From the IMG/VR virus record IMGVR_UViG_2706794691_000017: DNA of 5,321 nucleotides. One strand, given 5' to 3'. The notes beneath the pieces are model-generated. The model did no database searches. It worked only from the letters and a program-made list of their open reading frames with translations, and had not been told where the DNA came from. Each line of letters opens with the position of its first letter. Within the stretch, counting starts at the first letter, position 1. Below are positions 1 to 5,321 of this stretch, piece by piece. The position numbers were made by a program, and so were the translations under genes. Source of the stretch: a virus. Taxonomy: Duplodnaviria > Heunggongvirae > Uroviricota > Caudoviricetes.

Positions 1-1083
1 ATGAAAAAATTAACAGTGGCAATTTCTGCTGTAGCTGCATCAGTACTGATGGCGATGTCTGCTCAGGCAGCTGAAATTTATAATAAAGACAGTAACAAGC
101 TGGATCTGTACGGGAAAGTTAATGCTAAGCACTACTTCTCCTCTAATGATGCAGATGATGGTGATACTACTTATGCCCGTCTTGGCTTCAAAGGTGAAAC
201 CCAAATCAACGATCAACTGACTGGTTTCGGTCAGTGGGAATATGAATTCAAAGGCAACCGCGCTGAATCTCAAGGTTCCTCCAAAGATAAAACCCGTCTT
301 GCCTTCGCTGGCCTGAAATTCGGTGACTACGGCTCCATCGATTACGGCCGTAACTACGGTGTAGCATACGACATCGGTGCGTGGACTGACGTCCTGCCAG
401 AATTCGGTGGTGACACTTGGACTCAAACAGATGTGTTCATGACTGGTCGCACCACTGGTGTTGCAACTTATCGTAACAACGACTTCTTTGGTCTGGTTGA
501 TGGTCTGAACTTTGCTGCTCAGTATCAGGGTAAAAATGACCGCACTGACGTAACTGAAGCTAATGGTGATGGTTTCGGTTTCTCCACTACTTATGAGTAT
601 GAAGGATTCGGTGTAGGTGCAACCTATGCTAAATCTGACCGCACTAATAATCAGGTTATCTACGGTAACAACAGCCTGAATGCATCTGGTCAAAATGCTG
701 AAGTATGGGCAGCTGGTCTGAAATATGATGCGAACAACATCTATCTGGCTACCACCTATTCTGAAACCCAGAACATGACTGTTTTTGGTAATAACCATAT
801 TGCCAACAAAGCACAAAACTTCGAAGTAGTTGCACAATATCAGTTCGACTTCGGTCTGCGTCCGTCCGTTGCTTACCTGCAATCTAAAGGAAAAGACTTG
901 GGTGCGTGGGGTGATCAGGACCTGGTTGAATATATTGATGTAGGTGCAACCTATTACTTCAACAAAAATATGTCCACTTTTGTTGATTACAAAATCAACC
1001 TGATTGATAAGAGCGATTTCACGAAAGCATCTGGCGTTGCTACCGATGATATCGTTGCTGTAGGTATGGTTTACCAGTTCTAA
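1..1083 (+). CDS. nmpC: Outer membrane general porin, NmpC/Lc/OmpD-like (OmpC/OmpF/PhoE family), apparently intact
   Basis: 360-aa ORF with a classic Sec signal peptide ([30 protein letters not shown]), porin-typical Gly/Tyr/Asp-rich beta-strand composition, and the C-terminal aromatic residue (..VYQF) needed for outer-membrane insertion. The protein matches my recollection of E. coli NmpC. Lies convergent to the phage Q gene, as in DLP12. Confidence 0.9.
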
Positions 1084-1271: not shown

Positions 1272-1655
1272 TTAATTAGAGTTATTAACAACGATATCCA
1301 TCTCTAACCGGATATCTAATGCCATTAACATCCCTTCAATTATGCCCTCAGCCTTCTGTAACCTTTTCCCGATATAACCATCAGAGCAGCAATGCTTACC
1401 TGCCAGTGACATGAATGTCATACCGACTACATAATAATCTACTAATAAATCGTGCAAATCGCTGTTGTTCTTTTTCAGACGGGCCATGCACCCGCAAATA
1501 ATCATCGCGTCATCGTCACAACATTGCGGGCGAGATTTTACTTTTGAAGTAATTAATCCCTTAAAACCGGCGGCAATGGACGACCAGGTCACATCTTCAT
1601 GATTATTAGCCGCCCACGCTCCCCAACGCTCAAGAACCATCTGAATATCACGCAT
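1272..1655 (-). CDS. quuD: Late-gene antiterminator Q, phage 82 / QuuD type
   Basis: Translation [26 protein letters not shown]...[16 protein letters not shown]...DIVVNNSN matches my recollection of DLP12 QuuD (127 aa), with Cys-rich putative zinc-binding motifs. ATG at 1655 is preceded by GGAG with 7-nt spacing. The ORF track's 1670 start is an upstream in-frame TTG, which I consider less likely. Confidence 0.85.
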
Positions 1656-1740
1656 CAACTTACTCCACAAAAATCAGACCAGAACGCCAATTACAAGCAA
1701 AAATCAACAAAACAGTATTAGTTGATTGTTATCTCTGACT

Positions 1741-1881
1741 TCATACTCCTGCTCCTGTCAGGGTTTTGGCGTAATTCTTCAGTATTCGGTAATCGGTCAA
1801 AACAGAACCGGGGAAACGATATAAGCGCAGATGCCCCCAGCGGTGGCGAAGAAGTTCTGCCATATAAAACTCAAACATCAT
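1741..1881 (-). CDS. ylcG: Small protein, ylcG-like (46 aa), overlapping the rusA stop
   Basis: Manual translation of the minus strand gives [46 protein letters not shown]. It sits in the rusA-to-Q position that ylcG occupies in DLP12. Below the length cutoff of the supplied ORF track. Start could alternatively be the ATG at 1878 or 1863. Confidence 0.5.
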
Positions 1882-2240
1882 TCATTCCCCATTTCGGTGA
1901 TGGTCAGTTCCAGCCTCCCACCTTTGGTAACAGGCATCTTCACAACGCGGTAATCAACGACCTGAGCATCATCCAGCCAGAAACCTGCTTTGGTGAGTGC
2001 GTCAAAAGCGGCTTTTTGCAGATTATCCAGGTCACGGCGACGGCGATCCGGCATGTGGCACTCAATACGGATTTTCACTGGCATAGCCAGGCCGATATCC
2101 AGCATTGCGTTTTTAATGATTCGGGTGACGTTATCGCGGTATGCCTGCCCTTCTGCGCTGATGTGTGTGCGCCCGCGATTATGGCGGTAATAGCGGTTAT
2201 TGCTCGGAGGCCAGGGTAATGTGATGCTGTAGGTATTCAC
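1878..2240 (-). CDS. rusA: Holliday-junction resolvase RusA (crossover junction endodeoxyribonuclease)
   Basis: 120-aa translation [38 protein letters not shown]...[11 protein letters not shown] matches my recollection of RusA. GTG start overlaps the ybcO stop (GTGA). Confidence 0.9.
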
Positions 2241-2527
2241 GCCTTAATAACCCCCTCTTTCAGCCAGATAACCTGCGTTCTCGCCATACCTTCCAGCGCG
2301 CATTCTTTTGCATACTCAGCATCGACAAAATATGTGCGGCGGTCGATTTCGTCGTGACAGGCAGAACATGCAATGGTGGCAATCAGGTCTGGCGGTTTGA
2401 TACCGGTACCGCACAATCCAGCCAGCCGGATATGTGCCAGTACTGACGTTTCAGGATTGCCATTACATACGCCAGGGATTCTTACCTGGCATTCCCGACC
2501 ACGCGCTGCTTTTCTCAAATCAGCCAT
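2237..2527 (-). CDS. ybcO: YbcO-family protein (DUF1364; Cys-rich putative nuclease/zinc-binding protein of the nin region)
   Basis: 96-aa product [42 protein letters not shown]...[11 protein letters not shown].., starting at the ATG at 2527 with a strong upstream SD (AAGGAGGA). The ORF-track start at 2566 is an upstream in-frame ATG lacking an SD. Start overlaps the ninE stop (ATGGCTGA). Confidence 0.8.
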
Positions 2528-2690
2528 GATTCCTCCTTGCTGCCAGTCGCAACCATTTTTTATCAACCAGGCTAGCGGTATATCCGAGCAGTGTTGGTAT
2601 TTCGGATGGCTTCAGCTCAGGCTTACGCTTACGACGATTTGATACTCTGTAGATGTGCCCGTTCATGACACGAATAAGCGGTGTAGCCAT
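2520..2690 (-). CDS. ninE: NinE-family protein (56 aa)
   Basis: Manual translation [59 protein letters not shown] overlaps the ybcN stop (TAATG) and the stop overlaps the ybcO start. Below the ORF-track length cutoff. Confidence 0.75.
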   Translation of the reverse strand: MATPLIRVMNGHIYRVSNRRKRKPELKPSEIPTLLGYTASLVDKKWLRLAARRNHG

Positions 2691-3145
2691 TACGCCTCCT
2701 GCTTATCGCGCAGCTGCTGGTATTCACAGCTCTGCGGAATTGTCAGGTGGCAGCCGATATTCATCGCCCAGGCTTCGACTTTGCACAGGAAGATGTACAT
2801 CTCGCCGGTTTCCAGCTCTGACGTATGGCGGAGGGATTGGACGGTGGTGACCTCGCCGGACACGACATCTACACGGTCTTTGCTTTCGTAGCCGAGATAG
2901 GTGTGCTTCATCGCGTCTTTGACCCACTCAGGCGTAGCGAAGGTCTTGCCGCGGGCGATGAGATATTCGCTGATCTCCGTGTACCACATGTGGCTGAGCG
3001 CGTTCTGCGACAGGCTGCGCTTCTCGCGCCACGGCTTAACCTGCAGGCGTAAGCATTGCCCGGCATCCAGCAATGGCTGAATCTGCTGGCCGATGGCCGC
3101 GAAGTTACCGCGATGGAGTTTGATGCCGTCTACTGGCAGAGTCAT
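2690..3145 (-). CDS. ybcN: YbcN-family prophage protein (nin-region; reported base-flipping DNA-binding protein in E. coli)
   Basis: 151-aa ORF MTLPVDGIKLHRGNFAAIGQQIQPLLDAGQCLRLQVKPWREKRSLSQNALSHMWYTEISEYL.. matches my recollection of DLP12 YbcN. SD GGGAGG upstream. ATG overlaps the stop of the upstream small ORF (ATGA). Confidence 0.85.
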   Translation of the reverse strand: MTLPVDGIKLHRGNFAAIGQQIQPLLDAGQCLRLQVKPWREKRSLSQNALSHMWYTEISEYLIARGKTFATPEWVKDAMKHTYLGYESKDRVDVVSGEVTTVQSLRHTSELETGEMYIFLCKVEAWAMNIGCHLTIPQSCEYQQLRDKQEA

Positions 3146-3409: not shown

Positions 3410-3787
3410 ATGACCAACAAAGAAAACAAAGATAAATATATTAACAAGTTCAAGAAAGAGCTTTCAAAATATATACAACCAACTGCTGGAGTGGACATTC
3501 AATTATTTAACTCTAAGGATGGTGGTGGTGTAATTAAAGCCACTTTGAATAGAAGTGGAAAAAGAAAATCATCTATTGCTGGTAATTTTACTAAATTAGG
3601 TGAGGCAATTACCTCGAGTGGGCAGAGGGTTTTTGGTGGTGATCTATCAAATGTGAATTTTTACGGAACAAATACGATTTTTGATGGAGATACAATATTT
3701 TTAATTAAATCACCTGATTCAGAGGAGTGGTCATCACAAAAAGCTTCCAAAGACGTAGAGGGCATCGTATTTGGAGGGAAAAAATGA
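3410..3787 (+). CDS. Hypothetical protein, 125 aa, hydrophilic, Gly/Lys/Ser-rich, no signal peptide or TM segment; unassigned family (cassette gene A)
   Basis: Long uninterrupted ORF in a strongly AT-rich context. Product MTNKENKDKYINKFKKELSKYIQ...GGDLSNVNFYGTNTIFDGDTIFLIKSPDSEEW...GIVFGGKK. Weak or absent SD. I do not recognise the family. Confidence 0.6.
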   Translation: MTNKENKDKYINKFKKELSKYIQPTAGVDIQLFNSKDGGGVIKATLNRSGKRKSSIAGNFTKLGEAITSSGQRVFGGDLSNVNFYGTNTIFDGDTIFLIKSPDSEEWSSQKASKDVEGIVFGGKK

Positions 3788-3869
3788 TTAACATTACTAC
3801 TAAGGATGCACTCAAGTCAGTGGTGAAGTAAGAGATCTAGTAATTCTTCTTGAAACTGATGGAAAAACG

Positions 3870-4211
3870 GTGTCTGATTATTTGCAGCCAATCCCTCCCA
3901 AAAAAGATACACACTGGAGCATGATTTTCATTCCGGTAGCAATTTATATACTACTTAATCTTGTATACATTATTGCTCACCCATTATTTCCTGAAAAATA
4001 TCTAAAAACATCAACATCTATATTTCTATTCATTTCCTTCATATTAAGTGCAATAGTAGCATATTTTGTTTTCCATAAGCATAAATCTGCCACTCTATCC
4101 ATATGCAGCTTAGTGTTCTTAGTGTTAATTGTAGGTGCTAACGTAGGGTTTATCAGTTACAGCGACCTAACACAAAAAGCGACGCAAAAATTAGATAGTT
4201 TGTCTAAATAA
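3870..4211 (+). CDS. Hypothetical small integral membrane protein, 113 aa, about 3 predicted TM helices; unassigned family (cassette gene B)
   Basis: GTG start at 3870 (an internal ATG at 3918 is an alternative). Hydrophobic stretches WSMIFIPVAIYILLNLVYIIA, TSIFLFISFILSAIVAYFVF and LSICSLVFLVLIVGANVGFI are separated by short charged loops (PEKYLK, HKHKSAT). AT-rich codon usage matches gene A. Confidence 0.6.
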   Translation: MSDYLQPIPPKKDTHWSMIFIPVAIYILLNLVYIIAHPLFPEKYLKTSTSIFLFISFILSAIVAYFVFHKHKSATLSICSLVFLVLIVGANVGFISYSDLTQKATQKLDSLSK

Positions 4212-4218
4212 TTATGTT

Positions 4219-4266
4219 GCCATGCGAAGTATGCATGGCTGCATGTCTGCCTTCCATTTAAAATGG
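4219..4266 (+). other. Inverted repeats downstream of cassette gene B (gccatgc..gcatggc stem; palindrome ccatttaaaatgg); possible weak terminator or site
   Basis: 7-bp stem at 4219-4225 / 4233-4239 with 7-nt loop, and a 13-bp palindrome at 4254-4266. No strong U-tract. Confidence 0.2.
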
Positions 4267-4318: not shown

Positions 4319-4341
4319 GGTGATGCTGCCAACTTACTGAT
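4319..4341 (+). repeat. IS1 left terminal inverted repeat (IRL)
   Basis: GGTGATGCTGCCAACTTACTGAT, imperfect inverted match to 5064-5086. Confidence 0.85.
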
Positions 4342-4373
4342 TTAGTGTATGATGGTGTTTTTGAGGTGCTCCA

Positions 4374-4577
4374 GTGGCTTCTGTTTCTATCAGCTGTCCC
4401 TCCTGTTCAGCTACTGACGGGGTGGTGCGTAACGGCAAAAGCACTGCCGGACATCAGCGCTATCTCTGCTCTCACTGCCGTAAAACATGGCAACTGCAGT
4501 TCACTTACACCGCTTCTCAACCCGGTACGCACCAGAAAATCATTGATATTGTCAGCGCCAGTGATATAAGACGGTAA
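4374..4577 (+). CDS. insA: IS1 InsA, C-terminally truncated variant (66 aa; canonical InsA is 91 aa)
   Basis: GTG start. [58 protein letters not shown] matches the InsA zinc-finger N-terminus, then diverges (IVSASDIRR*) and stops at the TAA at 4575-4577, upstream of the slippery site. Confidence 0.7.
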
Positions 4578-4585
4578 TTCGCCAT

Positions 4586-5071
4586 TTGGATTGTCCGCTC
4601 CACCCAACAGATTTTACGTCACTTAAAAAACTCAGGCCGCAGTCGGTAACCTCGCGCATACAGCCGGGCAGTGACGTCATCGTCTGCGCGGAAATGGACG
4701 AACAGTGGGGCTATGTCGGGGCTAAATCGCGCCAGCGCTGGCTGTTTTACGCGTATGACAGTCTCCGGAAGACGGTTGTTGCGCACGTATTCGGTGAACG
4801 CACTATGGCGACGCTGGGGCGTCTTATGAGCCTGCTGTCACCCTTTGACGTGGTGATATGGATGACGGATGGCTGGCCGCTGTATGAATCCCGCCTGAAG
4901 GGAAAGCTGCACGTAATCAGCAAGCGATATACGCAGCGAATTGAGCGGCATAACCTGAATCTGAGGCAGCACCTGGCACGGCTGGGACGGAAGTCGCTGT
5001 CGTTCTCAAAATCGGTGGAGCTGCATGACAAAGTCATCGGGCATTATCTGAACATAAAACACTATCAATAA
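4586..5071 (+). CDS. insB: IS1 InsB reading frame (transposase catalytic part); N-terminus differs from canonical
   Basis: From ..[50 protein letters not shown]... to ..HYLNIKHYQ* matches InsB. The first 8 residues (MDCPLHPT) come from the divergent block. Confidence 0.75.
4623..4631 (+). promoter_or_regulatory. IS1 programmed -1 ribosomal frameshift motif (TTAAAAAAC) that normally produces the InsAB' transposase
   Basis: Motif read directly, in the conserved position relative to insB. The upstream insA frame is interrupted by a stop in this copy. Confidence 0.6.
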
Positions 5072-5086
5072 GTTGGAGTCATTACC
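5064..5086 (-). repeat. IS1 right terminal inverted repeat (IRR)
   Basis: Reverse complement GGTAATGACTCCAACTTATTGAT. Confidence 0.85.
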
Positions 5087-5321
5087 GTGCGATGGCATAT
5101 TTTATGTTGTCATTAATGATTTCAATAATATGTGGAAGGTGATGGAATTTCAGCAACAGATCTATTGCCTCTTGTTGCTCTGAATCATTTAAATCGAAAA
5201 ACCAGTCACCACCGCTGGCAAGCCACATATTTCCATCGCCAGTTTCGAATGCATCCAACGCCATCGCTTCGTGGTTGCCTTTAACCGACGTAAACCAGGG
5301 GTGGTTTAGCAGGCGCAGCAC
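5082..5321 (-). pseudogene. Lambda-type Ser/Thr protein phosphatase (metallophosphoesterase, NinI/PPase-like), 3'-truncated at the IS1 junction; 5' end beyond window
   Basis: Translation ..HPWFTSVKGNHEAMALDAFETGDGNMWLASGGDWFFDLNDSEQQEAIDLLLKFHHLPHIIEIINDNIKYAIA aligns with the lambda PPase region FPWFRAVRGNHEQMM...GGGWFFNLDYD...LPLIIELVSKDKKYVI, including the GNHE motif. The ORF then runs into the IS1 right end (junction 5086/5087), where a stop (5082-5084) occurs. The expected C-terminal third is absent. Confidence 0.75.

What the first reader, a model, noticed from the sequence alone, without database searches (positions are those of the whole stretch)
3870..4211. Cassette gene B: small three-TM membrane protein, possible effector or immunity component
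Three hydrophobic segments of about 20 residues are separated by short charged loops, the N-terminus is basic (PPKKDTH) and the C-terminal tail is polar. Small multi-TM proteins are typical of abortive-infection effectors that depolarise the membrane, of immunity proteins and of superinfection-exclusion factors. The start codon is uncertain (GTG at 3870 or ATG at 3918).
Basis: inference. Interest (0 to 1): 0.6.

Follow-up and report, generated by a model that had tools for sequence, protein, structure and literature searches.

The report
Frameshifted three-TM prophage cargo gene
The ORF is the leftover 3' part of a small inner-membrane protein gene broken by a one-base deletion in Shigella sonnei; when intact, it is one half of an uncharacterised two-gene module carried by prophages and small plasmids of enteric bacteria, with an untested function that may be phage exclusion.

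Summary
The ORF at 3870-4211 and its three hydrophobic helices are real, but it is not a complete gene. In 46 complete E. coli genomes the gene is 142 aa (WP_000608370, phrog_16940). It starts at the ATG equivalent to window 3784, which overlaps the stop of gene A (ATGA) and follows a strong GGAGGG ribosome-binding site. The window has a 1-bp deletion (GG to G at 3808) that stops this frame after 15 codons. That cuts off the 36-residue N-terminal domain, the most conserved part of the protein. The 113-aa product is named only from Shigella sonnei.

Intact A (125 aa, basic, soluble) and B (142 aa, acidic cytoplasmic N-domain plus 3 TM) always occur together with overlapping stop and start. They are under purifying selection (dN/dS about 0.07-0.19). 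They sit in cargo slots of lambdoid prophages and of small rep/rop/mob plasmids across Enterobacterales, with the pairing kept down to 34-35% identity.

No sequence or profile search matched any known defence, Rex, colicin-immunity, holin or toxin family, and fold searches gave nothing specific. My best inference (about 40%) is a membrane-acting exclusion or abortive-infection module. The copy in this window is most likely dead.

The parts
3410..3787 (+). Gene A: intact 125-aa soluble, basic (pI 9.5) partner protein (WP_000182282 / phrog_18061)
   Evidence: ORF. It is 100% identical to the E. coli allele. phrog_18061 matches 1-125/125 at E 9e-85. There is no Pfam, NCBIfam or PADLOC hit. pI is.
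3773..3778 (+). Shine-Dalgarno GGAGGG serving the native start of gene B, inside the 3' end of gene A
   Evidence: Anti-SD duplex of -9.8 kcal/mol, against -2.4 to -3.3 for the other candidate starts. Sequence checked. Conserved as GGAGG[GA] in the Klebsiella loci.
3784..3831 (+). Native start of gene B (ATG overlapping the gene A stop as ATGA) and the 15-codon stub left by the frameshift (MINITTKDALKSVVK, stop TAA 3829-3831)
   Evidence: RefSeq annotates the intact 429-nt CDS from this ATG.
3808..3809 (+). Site of the 1-bp deletion (intact alleles read GATGGCAC; the window reads GATGCAC)
   Evidence: Alignment. All 46 complete E. coli genomes carry the extra G (112 record bases against 111 query bases, none at 100% identity).
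3810..4211 (+). Remainder of gene B in the shifted frame (codons 10-142 plus stop). TM1 3918-3980, TM2 4014-4070, TM3 4092-4154.
   Evidence: tblastn: 100% identity, query 10-142 at 3810-4208. Hydropathy, AF2 helices, coordinates.
4219..4239 (+). Hairpin just after the B stop (GCCATGC-GAAGTAT-GCATGGC); the 3' boundary of the prophage form of the cassette. It has no U-tract, so it is not a canonical terminator.
   Evidence: RNA fold -16.6 kcal/mol, z -2.4. The Klebsiella alleles have a longer hairpin at the same place, with a longer stem built around the same core, at -27.5 kcal/mol, z -7.3. Plasmid forms have none.
4319..5086 (+). IS1 that replaces the replication gene P found downstream of B in intact prophages. 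It contains a 60-bp IS21 left-end patch at 4550-4609.
   Evidence: In the E. coli genomes shown, replication protein P follows B.

Best explanation
SHOWN (about 0.9 confidence). The 3870-4211 ORF is the distal part of a frameshift-inactivated allele of a conserved 142-aa inner-membrane protein gene ('B'). The real start is ATG 3784. It is translationally coupled to the stop of upstream gene A (ATGA) and has its own strong GGAGGG site. A 1-bp deletion at 3808, found in Shigella sonnei-type assemblies, ends that frame after 15 codons. This separates the 36-residue N-terminal domain, the best-conserved part of the protein, from the three TM helices. No usable ribosome-binding site precedes GTG 3870 or ATG 3921, so this copy is most probably a pseudogene. 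It lies in a decayed DLP12-like prophage whose replication genes have been replaced by IS elements.

Intact A and B form an obligate two-gene cargo module. They always occur together, with overlapping or abutting stop and start. They are under purifying selection. They are carried in variable cargo slots of lambdoid prophages (antisense to the early-right operon) and of small rep/rop/mob plasmids across Enterobacterales.

INFERRED (about 0.4 confidence). The module is a membrane-acting conflict system of the phage-exclusion or abortive-infection kind. B inserts N-in/C-out and self-associates through TM3 ([GS]-x-N-x-G) and TM1 (invariant Asn). Its acidic cytoplasmic N-domain docks the small basic protein A. 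On a trigger, A either opens B as a leak or pore, or positions it to block DNA entry. Losing the N-domain, as in this window, would uncouple B from A.
For: Frameshift and true start. SD strengths. Thirteen of 17 protein clusters are exactly 142 aa, and the PHROG profile has 142 positions matched end to end. Residues 1-36 are nearly invariant at 59-99% overall identity. That conservation is at protein level: 13 synonymous against 0 non-synonymous changes in codons 1-36 between two alleles, and dN/dS about 0.07 against Klebsiella alleles.

Allele distribution: none of 46 complete E. coli genomes has the deletion. The 113-aa product is named only from S. sonnei and occurs on many contigs. The window is identical to L012.

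Module: A and B are together in all 43 fetched loci that carry either gene. These include Klebsiella and Enterobacter prophages and plasmids where A is only 35% and B only 34% identical. Plasmid flanks match PLSDB rep/rop/mobC backbones.

Protein features: three TM helices. The TM2-TM3 loop is the most positive loop in every subfamily. N59, N120, G122, P51, Y62, Y94, F95 and K99 are invariant across the deep family. A has pI 9.1-9.6 and the B N-domain pI 4.2-5.1 in all subfamilies.

Conflict-type neighbours in the same slots: a colicin-like plus immunity-like pair and DndB in L043, and a DUF4433 module on a related plasmid. Each gene survives loss of the other (B broken in S. sonnei; A broken in L002 and L053). 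That fits a gated system better than a constitutive toxin.

Against: The prophage slot also carries non-defence cargo such as emrE, ybcL, a hydrolase and an adhesin, so location is weak evidence. Contact between A and the B N-domain, oligomerisation and topology are inferred from charge, conservation and the positive-inside rule, not tested. The AF2 model of A is poor (pLDDT 58.5), and the N-domain of B is modelled at only pLDDT 51-55. Low-level reinitiation at GTG 3870 cannot be excluded. The A lesion in L053 is in a T5 homopolymer and could be a sequencing error.
Confidence: 0.5

Rival explanations
1. Toxin-antitoxin or addiction module. B is a membrane toxin and A is its upstream, translationally coupled protein antitoxin, stabilising the plasmid or prophage that carries them. 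The S. sonnei frameshift is then simply loss of the toxin.
For: The gene order (small soluble protein first, overlapping the second gene) and the size are typical of such modules. The pair is the only cargo on plasmids of about 3.5-4.8 kb. At least three independent frameshifts hit B (S. sonnei; L033; P0047). Related plasmids carry a DUF4433 (DarT-like) module in the same slot.
Against: A has no recognisable DNA-binding or antitoxin domain. Two genomes keep intact B with a disrupted A: IS1 in A in L002, and a frameshift in A with the native promoter intact in L053. That should be lethal for a classical toxin-antitoxin pair, although B may be unexpressed in L002 and the L053 lesion may be a sequencing error. 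B is intact in all 46 complete E. coli genomes that carry the cassette.
Confidence: 0.17
2. Non-conflict cargo. The pair serves host or replicon physiology, for example membrane tethering or maintenance of the replicon, or a small transport or stress function, and has nothing to do with phage or competitor exclusion.
For: The prophage slot holds miscellaneous cargo (emrE, ybcL, ybcM, a hydrolase, an adhesin). In both element types the module lies next to replication genes. On plasmids it overlaps the 3' end of rep and is co-directional with it. In prophages it abuts P or the DnaB/DnaC-type genes. A is basic and so could bind nucleic acid.
Against: In prophages it is transcribed antisense to the replication operon, with its own upstream region and 3' hairpin. 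That is the pattern of a lysogen-expressed moron rather than a replication accessory. The family is extremely rare: 7 hits among 1.84 billion representatives, and none in 185,579 species-representative genomes. That is unlike a generally useful housekeeping function. There is no transporter or partition homology.
Confidence: 0.2
3. The truncated 113-aa (or 96-aa) protein is still made in this genome and keeps a function as a stand-alone three-TM protein.
For: The frame is open from 3804 to 4211 and is 100% identical to codons 10-142 of the intact allele. It lies downstream of the intact, presumably transcribed gene A. Ribosomes terminating at 3829-3831 could reinitiate 38 nt downstream.
Against: Neither GTG 3870 nor ATG 3921 has a Shine-Dalgarno sequence. 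The lost residues 1-29 belong to the most strongly conserved region. No natural family member starts there, and shorter database entries are partial or frameshift products. There is no slippery heptamer for a corrective -1 frameshift between 3804 and 3829 (read directly from the sequence). The perfect identity of the remaining frame is expected if the lesion is recent and says nothing about selection.
Confidence: 0.1
4. B is an orphan bacteriocin (pore-forming colicin or microcin) immunity protein, with A as an accessory.
For: From my own knowledge, immunity proteins of E1-type pore-forming colicins are inner-membrane proteins of about 110 aa with three TM helices, and are plasmid-borne. B has that size class and helix number and is plasmid- or prophage-borne. 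In L043 the module lies beside a colicin-like gene (PF01024, weak) and a Colicin_im-like gene (PF03857, weak).
Against: B has no Pfam Colicin_im hit. hhalign of the B profile against the L043 immunity-like protein gave 0.1% probability. No bacteriocin gene accompanies the module in the other 42 loci. A has no secretion signal, no colicin domain and a highly charged composition. The conserved cytoplasmic N-domain and the obligatory partner are not features of known immunity proteins (my knowledge).
Confidence: 0.05

Closest known systems
Lambda RexA/RexB (prophage-expressed abortive-infection pair: soluble sensor plus small multi-TM membrane protein)
   Same: Both are two adjacent genes with the soluble protein first and a membrane protein of about 140 aa second (RexB is 144 aa). 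Both are carried by lambdoid prophages and positioned to be expressed outside the lytic operons.
   Different: No homology: hhalign probability is 1.6% for B against RexB and 0.3% for A against RexA. A is 125 aa against 279 aa for RexA. B has 3 TM helices plus a conserved cytoplasmic N-domain, whereas RexB is described as having 4 TM (my knowledge). The genomic position differs (the nin/replication junction rather than the immunity region). A-B also lives on small plasmids.
Single-protein inner-membrane superinfection-exclusion factors (e.g. P22 SieA; preprint 10.1101/2023.08.15.553423, seen)
   Same: Both are prophage-encoded small inner-membrane proteins placed as lysogen-expressed cargo. 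A block to DNA entry is a plausible action for a protein with no enzymatic domain.
   Different: The SieA preprint's abstract reports that SieA alone is sufficient. Here the soluble partner A is kept in every locus down to 35% identity. No direct sequence comparison with SieA was made. No Pfam family of any kind matched B.
Protein-protein toxin-antitoxin pairs with a membrane toxin, e.g. CptA(YgfX)/CptB(SdhE) (my own knowledge)
   Same: A small soluble protein is encoded upstream of a small multi-TM inner-membrane protein in one operon.
   Different: No Pfam or NCBIfam match to any toxin or antitoxin family. Genomes exist with A disrupted and B intact. Toxicity has not been tested.
phrog_16940 and phrog_18061 (PHROGs families of unknown function)
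   Same: These are the same families: the intact B matches phrog_16940 over 1-142/142 (E 7e-94), and A matches phrog_18061 over 1-125/125 (E 9e-85).
   Different: PHROGs records no function or pairing. The window copy of B is frameshifted. No sequenced phage in INPHARED carries B, so the families presumably derive from prophages.

Membership tests
B family (WP_000608370 / phrog_16940) | Sequence identity over the three-TM core | tested here: met
   tblastn gives 100% identity for residues 10-142 at window 3810-4208. The intact protein matches phrog_16940 end to end.
B family (WP_000608370 / phrog_16940) | One continuous ORF of about 142 aa that includes the conserved N-terminal domain (residues 1-36) | tested here: not met
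   A 1-bp deletion at 3808 stops the native frame at 3829-3831. The window therefore holds a disrupted allele of the family, not an intact member.
B family (WP_000608370 / phrog_16940) | Immediately preceded by an A-type gene whose stop overlaps the B start | tested here: met
   Gene A 3410-3787 is intact and the ATGA overlap at 3784-3787 is retained. The same arrangement is seen in nearly all 43 loci that carry the module; in L043 the genes abut rather than overlap.
B family (WP_000608370 / phrog_16940) | Three TM helices with invariant N59 (TM1) and N120/G122 (TM3) | tested here: met
   Hydropathy, AF2, and invariant columns across 34-99% identity. All are present in the window's residual frame.
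Lambda RexB / RexA | Detectable sequence or profile homology | tested here: not met
   hhalign probability is 1.6% (B profile against RexB) and 0.3% (A profile against RexA). There is no Pfam hit.
Lambda RexB / RexA | Membrane depolarisation on phage infection that depends on both proteins | not testable with these tools
   Needs infection and membrane-potential assays.
Pore-forming colicin immunity proteins (Pfam Colicin_im, PF03857) | Profile match to the family | tested here: not met
   B has no Colicin_im hit at E<=1. hhalign against the Colicin_im-like protein of L043 gave 0.1% probability.
Pore-forming colicin immunity proteins (Pfam Colicin_im, PF03857) | Linked cognate bacteriocin gene | tested here: not met
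   Only A accompanies B. A has no colicin domain or signal peptide. Only L043 has a separate colicin-like gene nearby, with its own immunity-like gene.
Known or candidate anti-phage defence systems (PADLOC-DB v2.0.0) | HMM match of either protein to a system component | tested here: not met
   For A and B from all three subfamilies the best hits are E 0.17 and 0.02, well below significance.
Toxin-antitoxin pair with a membrane toxin | Two small co-transcribed, overlapping genes with the soluble one first | tested here: met
   A 4-nt overlap in most prophage and type-2 plasmid copies and a 17-nt overlap in type-1 plasmid copies.
Toxin-antitoxin pair with a membrane toxin | An intact toxin is not tolerated without the antitoxin | tested here: inconclusive
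   L002 (IS1 in A) and L053 (frameshift in A) keep an intact B. However, B may be unexpressed in L002, and the L053 lesion lies in a homopolymer and may be a sequencing error.
Toxin-antitoxin pair with a membrane toxin | Toxicity of B and neutralisation by A | not testable with these tools
   Needs expression experiments.

The most novel reading that the evidence does not exclude
A-B is a previously unrecognised two-gene anti-phage (exclusion or abortive-infection) system of Enterobacterales that moves between lambdoid prophages and small plasmids. It would use a new three-TM effector whose activity is controlled, through a 36-residue acidic cytoplasmic domain, by a small basic partner protein. 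The S. sonnei lineage would then carry a natural loss-of-function allele.
Probability: 0.3. Interest if true: 0.6.

Novelty: new member of a known kind. Interest (0 to 1): 0.3.

Why it matters
For this window the practical point concerns annotation. The 113-aa 'hypothetical protein' deposited for many S. sonnei genomes is the residue of a frameshifted gene and should be flagged as a pseudogene. The ORF should not be taken as evidence of a functional membrane effector in this strain.

For the family, the comparative evidence defines a compact, well-bounded, experimentally tractable two-gene module of about 0.8 kb. The evidence is obligate pairing down to 34-35% identity, purifying selection, and carriage on two unrelated kinds of mobile element. 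The module has no assigned function and no relatives among known systems. If it proves to be a defence or exclusion system, it would add a new small membrane effector type. It would also come with ready-made natural mutants: the S. sonnei N-domain loss, and the A-disrupted E. coli strains.

Tried and rejected

2. Wider sequence searches. The species-representative genomes had no relative. INPHARED phages had none. PLSDB had none for either plasmid-type B. PDB sequences had none. The exhaustive profile search found only 7 hits in 1.84 billion representatives.

3. P0050, a 571-aa protein with four repeats resembling B residues 12-46 (E 7e-5), looks like a sigma-70/HTH repeat protein. I judged it a chance helix-turn similarity, not a lead.

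4. Programmed frameshifting to restore B was rejected: there is no slippery heptamer between 3804 and 3829 (sequence).

5. The 'defence hotspot' argument from position was rejected after finding emrE, ybcL, ybcM, an adhesin and a hydrolase in the same slot.

6. A microcin or colicin reading of A was rejected: no leader or export genes, and a charged composition.

7. Rfam found no known RNA anywhere in the window.

8. Literature and supplement searches for the accessions and PHROG ids found nothing. Searches for described defence genes at the nin/replication junction found nothing specific.

9. An inversion as the explanation for the odd IS1 segment was rejected.

Full report
CONTEXT. The window is a piece of a DLP12-like lambdoid prophage. 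It holds an OmpC/NmpC-type porin (1-1083, +). On the minus strand it holds quuD, ylcG, rusA, ybcO, ninE and ybcN/NinB (1272-3145). These identifications come from the ORF list and the RefSeq annotation of near-identical E. coli loci. A low-GC stretch follows (32-38% against about 52-59% in the nin genes).

THE OBSERVATION. The ORF from GTG 3870 to TAA 4211 exists and encodes 113 aa. Three hydrophobic segments are clear, with 19-residue Kyte-Doolittle maxima of 2.49, 2.52 and 2.41. AlphaFold2 models them as three long helices with pLDDT 82-90. The internal ATG is at 3921, not 3918.

RefSeq annotates this gene in E. coli as a 142-aa protein, WP_000608370.1. Its ATG overlaps the stop codon of gene A. 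Aligning the window with two such genomes shows a single difference in the region. The intact alleles read AAGGATGGCAC and the window reads AAGGATGCAC, so one G is missing at 3808. From ATG 3784 the window therefore reads MINITTKDALKSVVK and stops at 3829-3831. The rest of the gene continues in another frame, with tblastn homology for residues 10-142 at 3810-4208.

WHY THE LONG FORM IS THE REAL GENE.
- Thirteen of the 17 protein clusters found among 5.8 billion proteins are exactly 142 aa. The PHROGs profile phrog_16940 has 142 positions, matched end to end.
- Residues 1-36 (MINITTKDGTQVSGEVRDLVILLETDGKTVSDYLQP) are the most conserved part of the protein, nearly invariant among sequences that are 59-99% identical overall.
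- That conservation is at the protein level. Between E. coli A7 and L030, codons 1-36 differ by 13 synonymous and 0 non-synonymous changes. Against Klebsiella alleles, dN/dS is about 0.07 for the N-domain and 0.07-0.19 for the whole gene across the pairs compared.
- ATG 3784 is preceded by GGAGGG (3773-3778), with an anti-SD duplex of -9.8 kcal/mol. GTG 3870 and ATG 3921 score -3.3 and -2.4.

WHERE THE BROKEN ALLELE OCCURS. All 46 complete E. coli genomes that carry the cassette (46 of 5,426) have the extra G. The exact 113-aa product is nevertheless abundant in draft assemblies, and every name attached to it is Shigella sonnei. The window is 100% identical to part of one such contig, L012. 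So the lesion is real, not a one-off sequencing error, and specific to that lineage. In intact prophages replication gene P follows B. Here IS1 does. The prophage is therefore a remnant.

THE MODULE. In nine divergent Klebsiella and Enterobacter-type loci, A (125 aa) and B (142 aa) sit together with the same 4-nt overlap. They always lie in a lambdoid prophage between the replication genes and the nin/Q region, and on the strand opposite to them. That is the layout of a moron with its own expression signals. Cassette homology between E. coli and Klebsiella versions starts at about the A start codon. It ends at a hairpin just after the B stop, at -16.6 and -27.5 kcal/mol respectively.

An exhaustive profile search of 1.84 billion representatives found only seven hits. 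Two were distant full-length relatives, P0046 and P0048, at 34-35% identity. P0046 lies on plasmids of about 3.5 kb with a primase-type rep and rop. It is preceded by an overlapping 128-aa gene that is 35% identical to A over its whole length, E 1e-22. P0048-type genes lie between rep and a NikA/MobC mobilisation gene, again behind an A-type gene. The flanks match common PLSDB backbones. Named hosts are Klebsiella, E. coli, Salmonella, Serratia and Providencia. A and B co-occur in every one of the 43 fetched loci that carry either gene. Many of these loci are near-duplicates. The independent contexts number about six: four prophage lineages and two plasmid types.

PROTEIN FEATURES. B has a soluble N-domain of about 36 residues. 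AF2 models it as a beta-hairpin plus a short helix at low confidence. A short linker and three TM helices follow, then an amphipathic tail. In every subfamily the TM2-TM3 loop is the most positively charged and the TM1-TM2 loop the least. By the positive-inside rule this predicts N-in/C-out, which puts the conserved N-domain in the cytoplasm. Invariant residues across the deep family include two intramembrane asparagines (N59 and N120), G122 within a [GS]-x-N-x-G motif in TM3, P51, Y62, Y94-F95 and K99. Such motifs typically mediate helix-helix association (my inference). A has no signal peptide or TM segment. It is basic in all subfamilies (pI 9.1-9.6), while the B N-domain is acidic (pI 4.2-5.1). 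This fits an A-to-B(N) contact in the cytoplasm but does not prove one.

SEARCH FOR A KNOWN FUNCTION. Nothing matched.
- Pfam gave only sub-threshold compositional TM hits.
- NCBIfam gave nothing. PADLOC gave nothing for any of the three subfamilies.
- Direct profile comparisons with lambda RexB, RexA and a colicin-immunity-like protein gave 1.6%, 0.3% and 0.1% probability.
- PHROGs holds both families without a function.
- No paper or supplement I could search mentions them.

FUNCTIONAL INFERENCE. The module is a rare, self-contained, horizontally mobile unit under purifying selection. It moves between cargo slots of prophages and small plasmids. Those slots also hold conflict genes: a colicin-like plus immunity-like pair and DndB in L043, and a DUF4433 module on a related plasmid. 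The prophage slot also holds ordinary cargo (emrE, ybcL, ybcM, a hydrolase, an adhesin), so position alone is weak evidence.

Each gene is found intact beside a broken partner. B is broken in S. sonnei, in L033 and in P0047. A is broken in L002 and L053. This argues, weakly, against a classical toxin-antitoxin pair. It fits a gated or benign membrane function.

I rank the readings as follows:
- Exclusion or abortive-infection module working like a miniature RexAB: about 0.4.
- Non-conflict cargo: about 0.2.
- Toxin-antitoxin or addiction module: about 0.17.
- Orphan bacteriocin immunity: about 0.05.

Whatever the function, the copy in this window has lost the coupling between its start site and its TM core, and with it the most constrained domain. 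I estimate about 0.8-0.9 that it is non-functional.

CAVEAT ON THE RIGHT-HAND PART OF THE WINDOW. Five S. sonnei-type contigs match the window up to 4609, four of them exactly, and then end or diverge. The 60 bp at 4550-4609 are the left terminus of IS21. In L029 a complete IS21 continues from there. The window (identical to L012) instead resumes IS1 sequence exactly 60 bp further on. That could be a deletion or an assembly join. L013 shows different genes beyond the IS elements. The IS1-pphB adjacency should therefore not be relied on. None of this affects the conclusions about gene B, which lies in the consistently assembled part.

VERDICT. The feature is a frameshifted copy of an uncharacterised but well-defined two-gene mobile module. 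Interest is low for this copy and moderate for the family.

Noticed in passing
window 4550-4609 (inside IS1 at 4319-5086): This IS1 copy has a 60-bp patch replacing exactly 60 bp of insA, which truncates InsA to 67 aa. The patch is the left terminus of IS21: it matches about 2,900 E. coli records and lies just upstream of istA. In contig L029 a full IS21 continues from it. Four other S. sonnei-type contigs end or diverge at 4609. The length-neutral return to IS1 in the window may be a deletion or an assembly join.
   Followed up: partly
window 5087-5321 (- strand); L012, L013: To the right of IS1 lies a 5'-part fragment of the core chromosomal phosphatase gene pphB, present in 5,169 of 5,426 E. 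coli genomes, with mutS next in L012. Another assembly (L013) shows different genes after the IS elements. The prophage's replication and immunity modules are missing either way, but the true junction is uncertain.
   Followed up: partly
L033:8001-8425; P0047; L053:1157-1402; L002:6161-7312: There are other independent lesions in the module. L033 has a 1-bp deletion (GCC to GC) in TM1 of B. P0047 is an allele truncated after the A-run of the linker, consistent with a frameshift there (58-aa product, E. coli). An ST80 E. coli (L053) has a T5-to-T4 deletion in gene A. Strain CV839-06 (L002) has an IS1 insertion in gene A. Some of these may be sequencing errors.
   Followed up: partly
L043:5665-7348: In one prophage the A-B module shares the nin/replication slot with a 377-aa pore-forming-colicin-like gene (PF01024, weak), a convergent 174-aa Colicin_im-like gene (PF03857, weak), a DndB-domain gene and an HNH gene. 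A colicin-like and immunity-like pair inside a lambdoid prophage is unusual.
   Followed up: no
window 4219-4239; L003:8430-8465: The hairpin directly after the B stop is kept in E. coli and Klebsiella prophage versions, where the stem is much longer but shares the same core (7 bp against about 15 bp). It has no following U-tract on either strand and is absent from the plasmid versions. It may be a transcript-stabilising stem or a cassette boundary rather than a terminator.
   Followed up: partly
L048:2644-3142 (plasmid NZ_CP089003.1); L049:655-2440 (CP037447.1): Related small plasmids carry other unannotated or poorly annotated cargo in the slot that A-B occupies. One has an 84-aa lipoprotein-like ORF overlapping the rep stop plus an antisense 71-aa two-TM ORF. 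Another has a 143-aa ORF, a DUF4433 (DarT-like) protein and a 243-aa protein.
   Followed up: no
P0050 (571 aa, metagenomic): This protein has a sigma-70 region-4/HTH segment followed by four tandem repeats of about 36 aa (…NVRDLVKKFENEGLTVEDYLHKACLKQ…). The repeats resemble residues 12-46 of B's N-domain (E 7e-5). This is probably a convergent helix-turn motif, but it is the only outside similarity found for the N-domain.
   Followed up: partly
window 1-1083 (+): The prophage-borne OmpC/NmpC-type porin gene is intact here (360 aa). The K-12 DLP12 copy has an IS5 immediately next to it.
   Followed up: no
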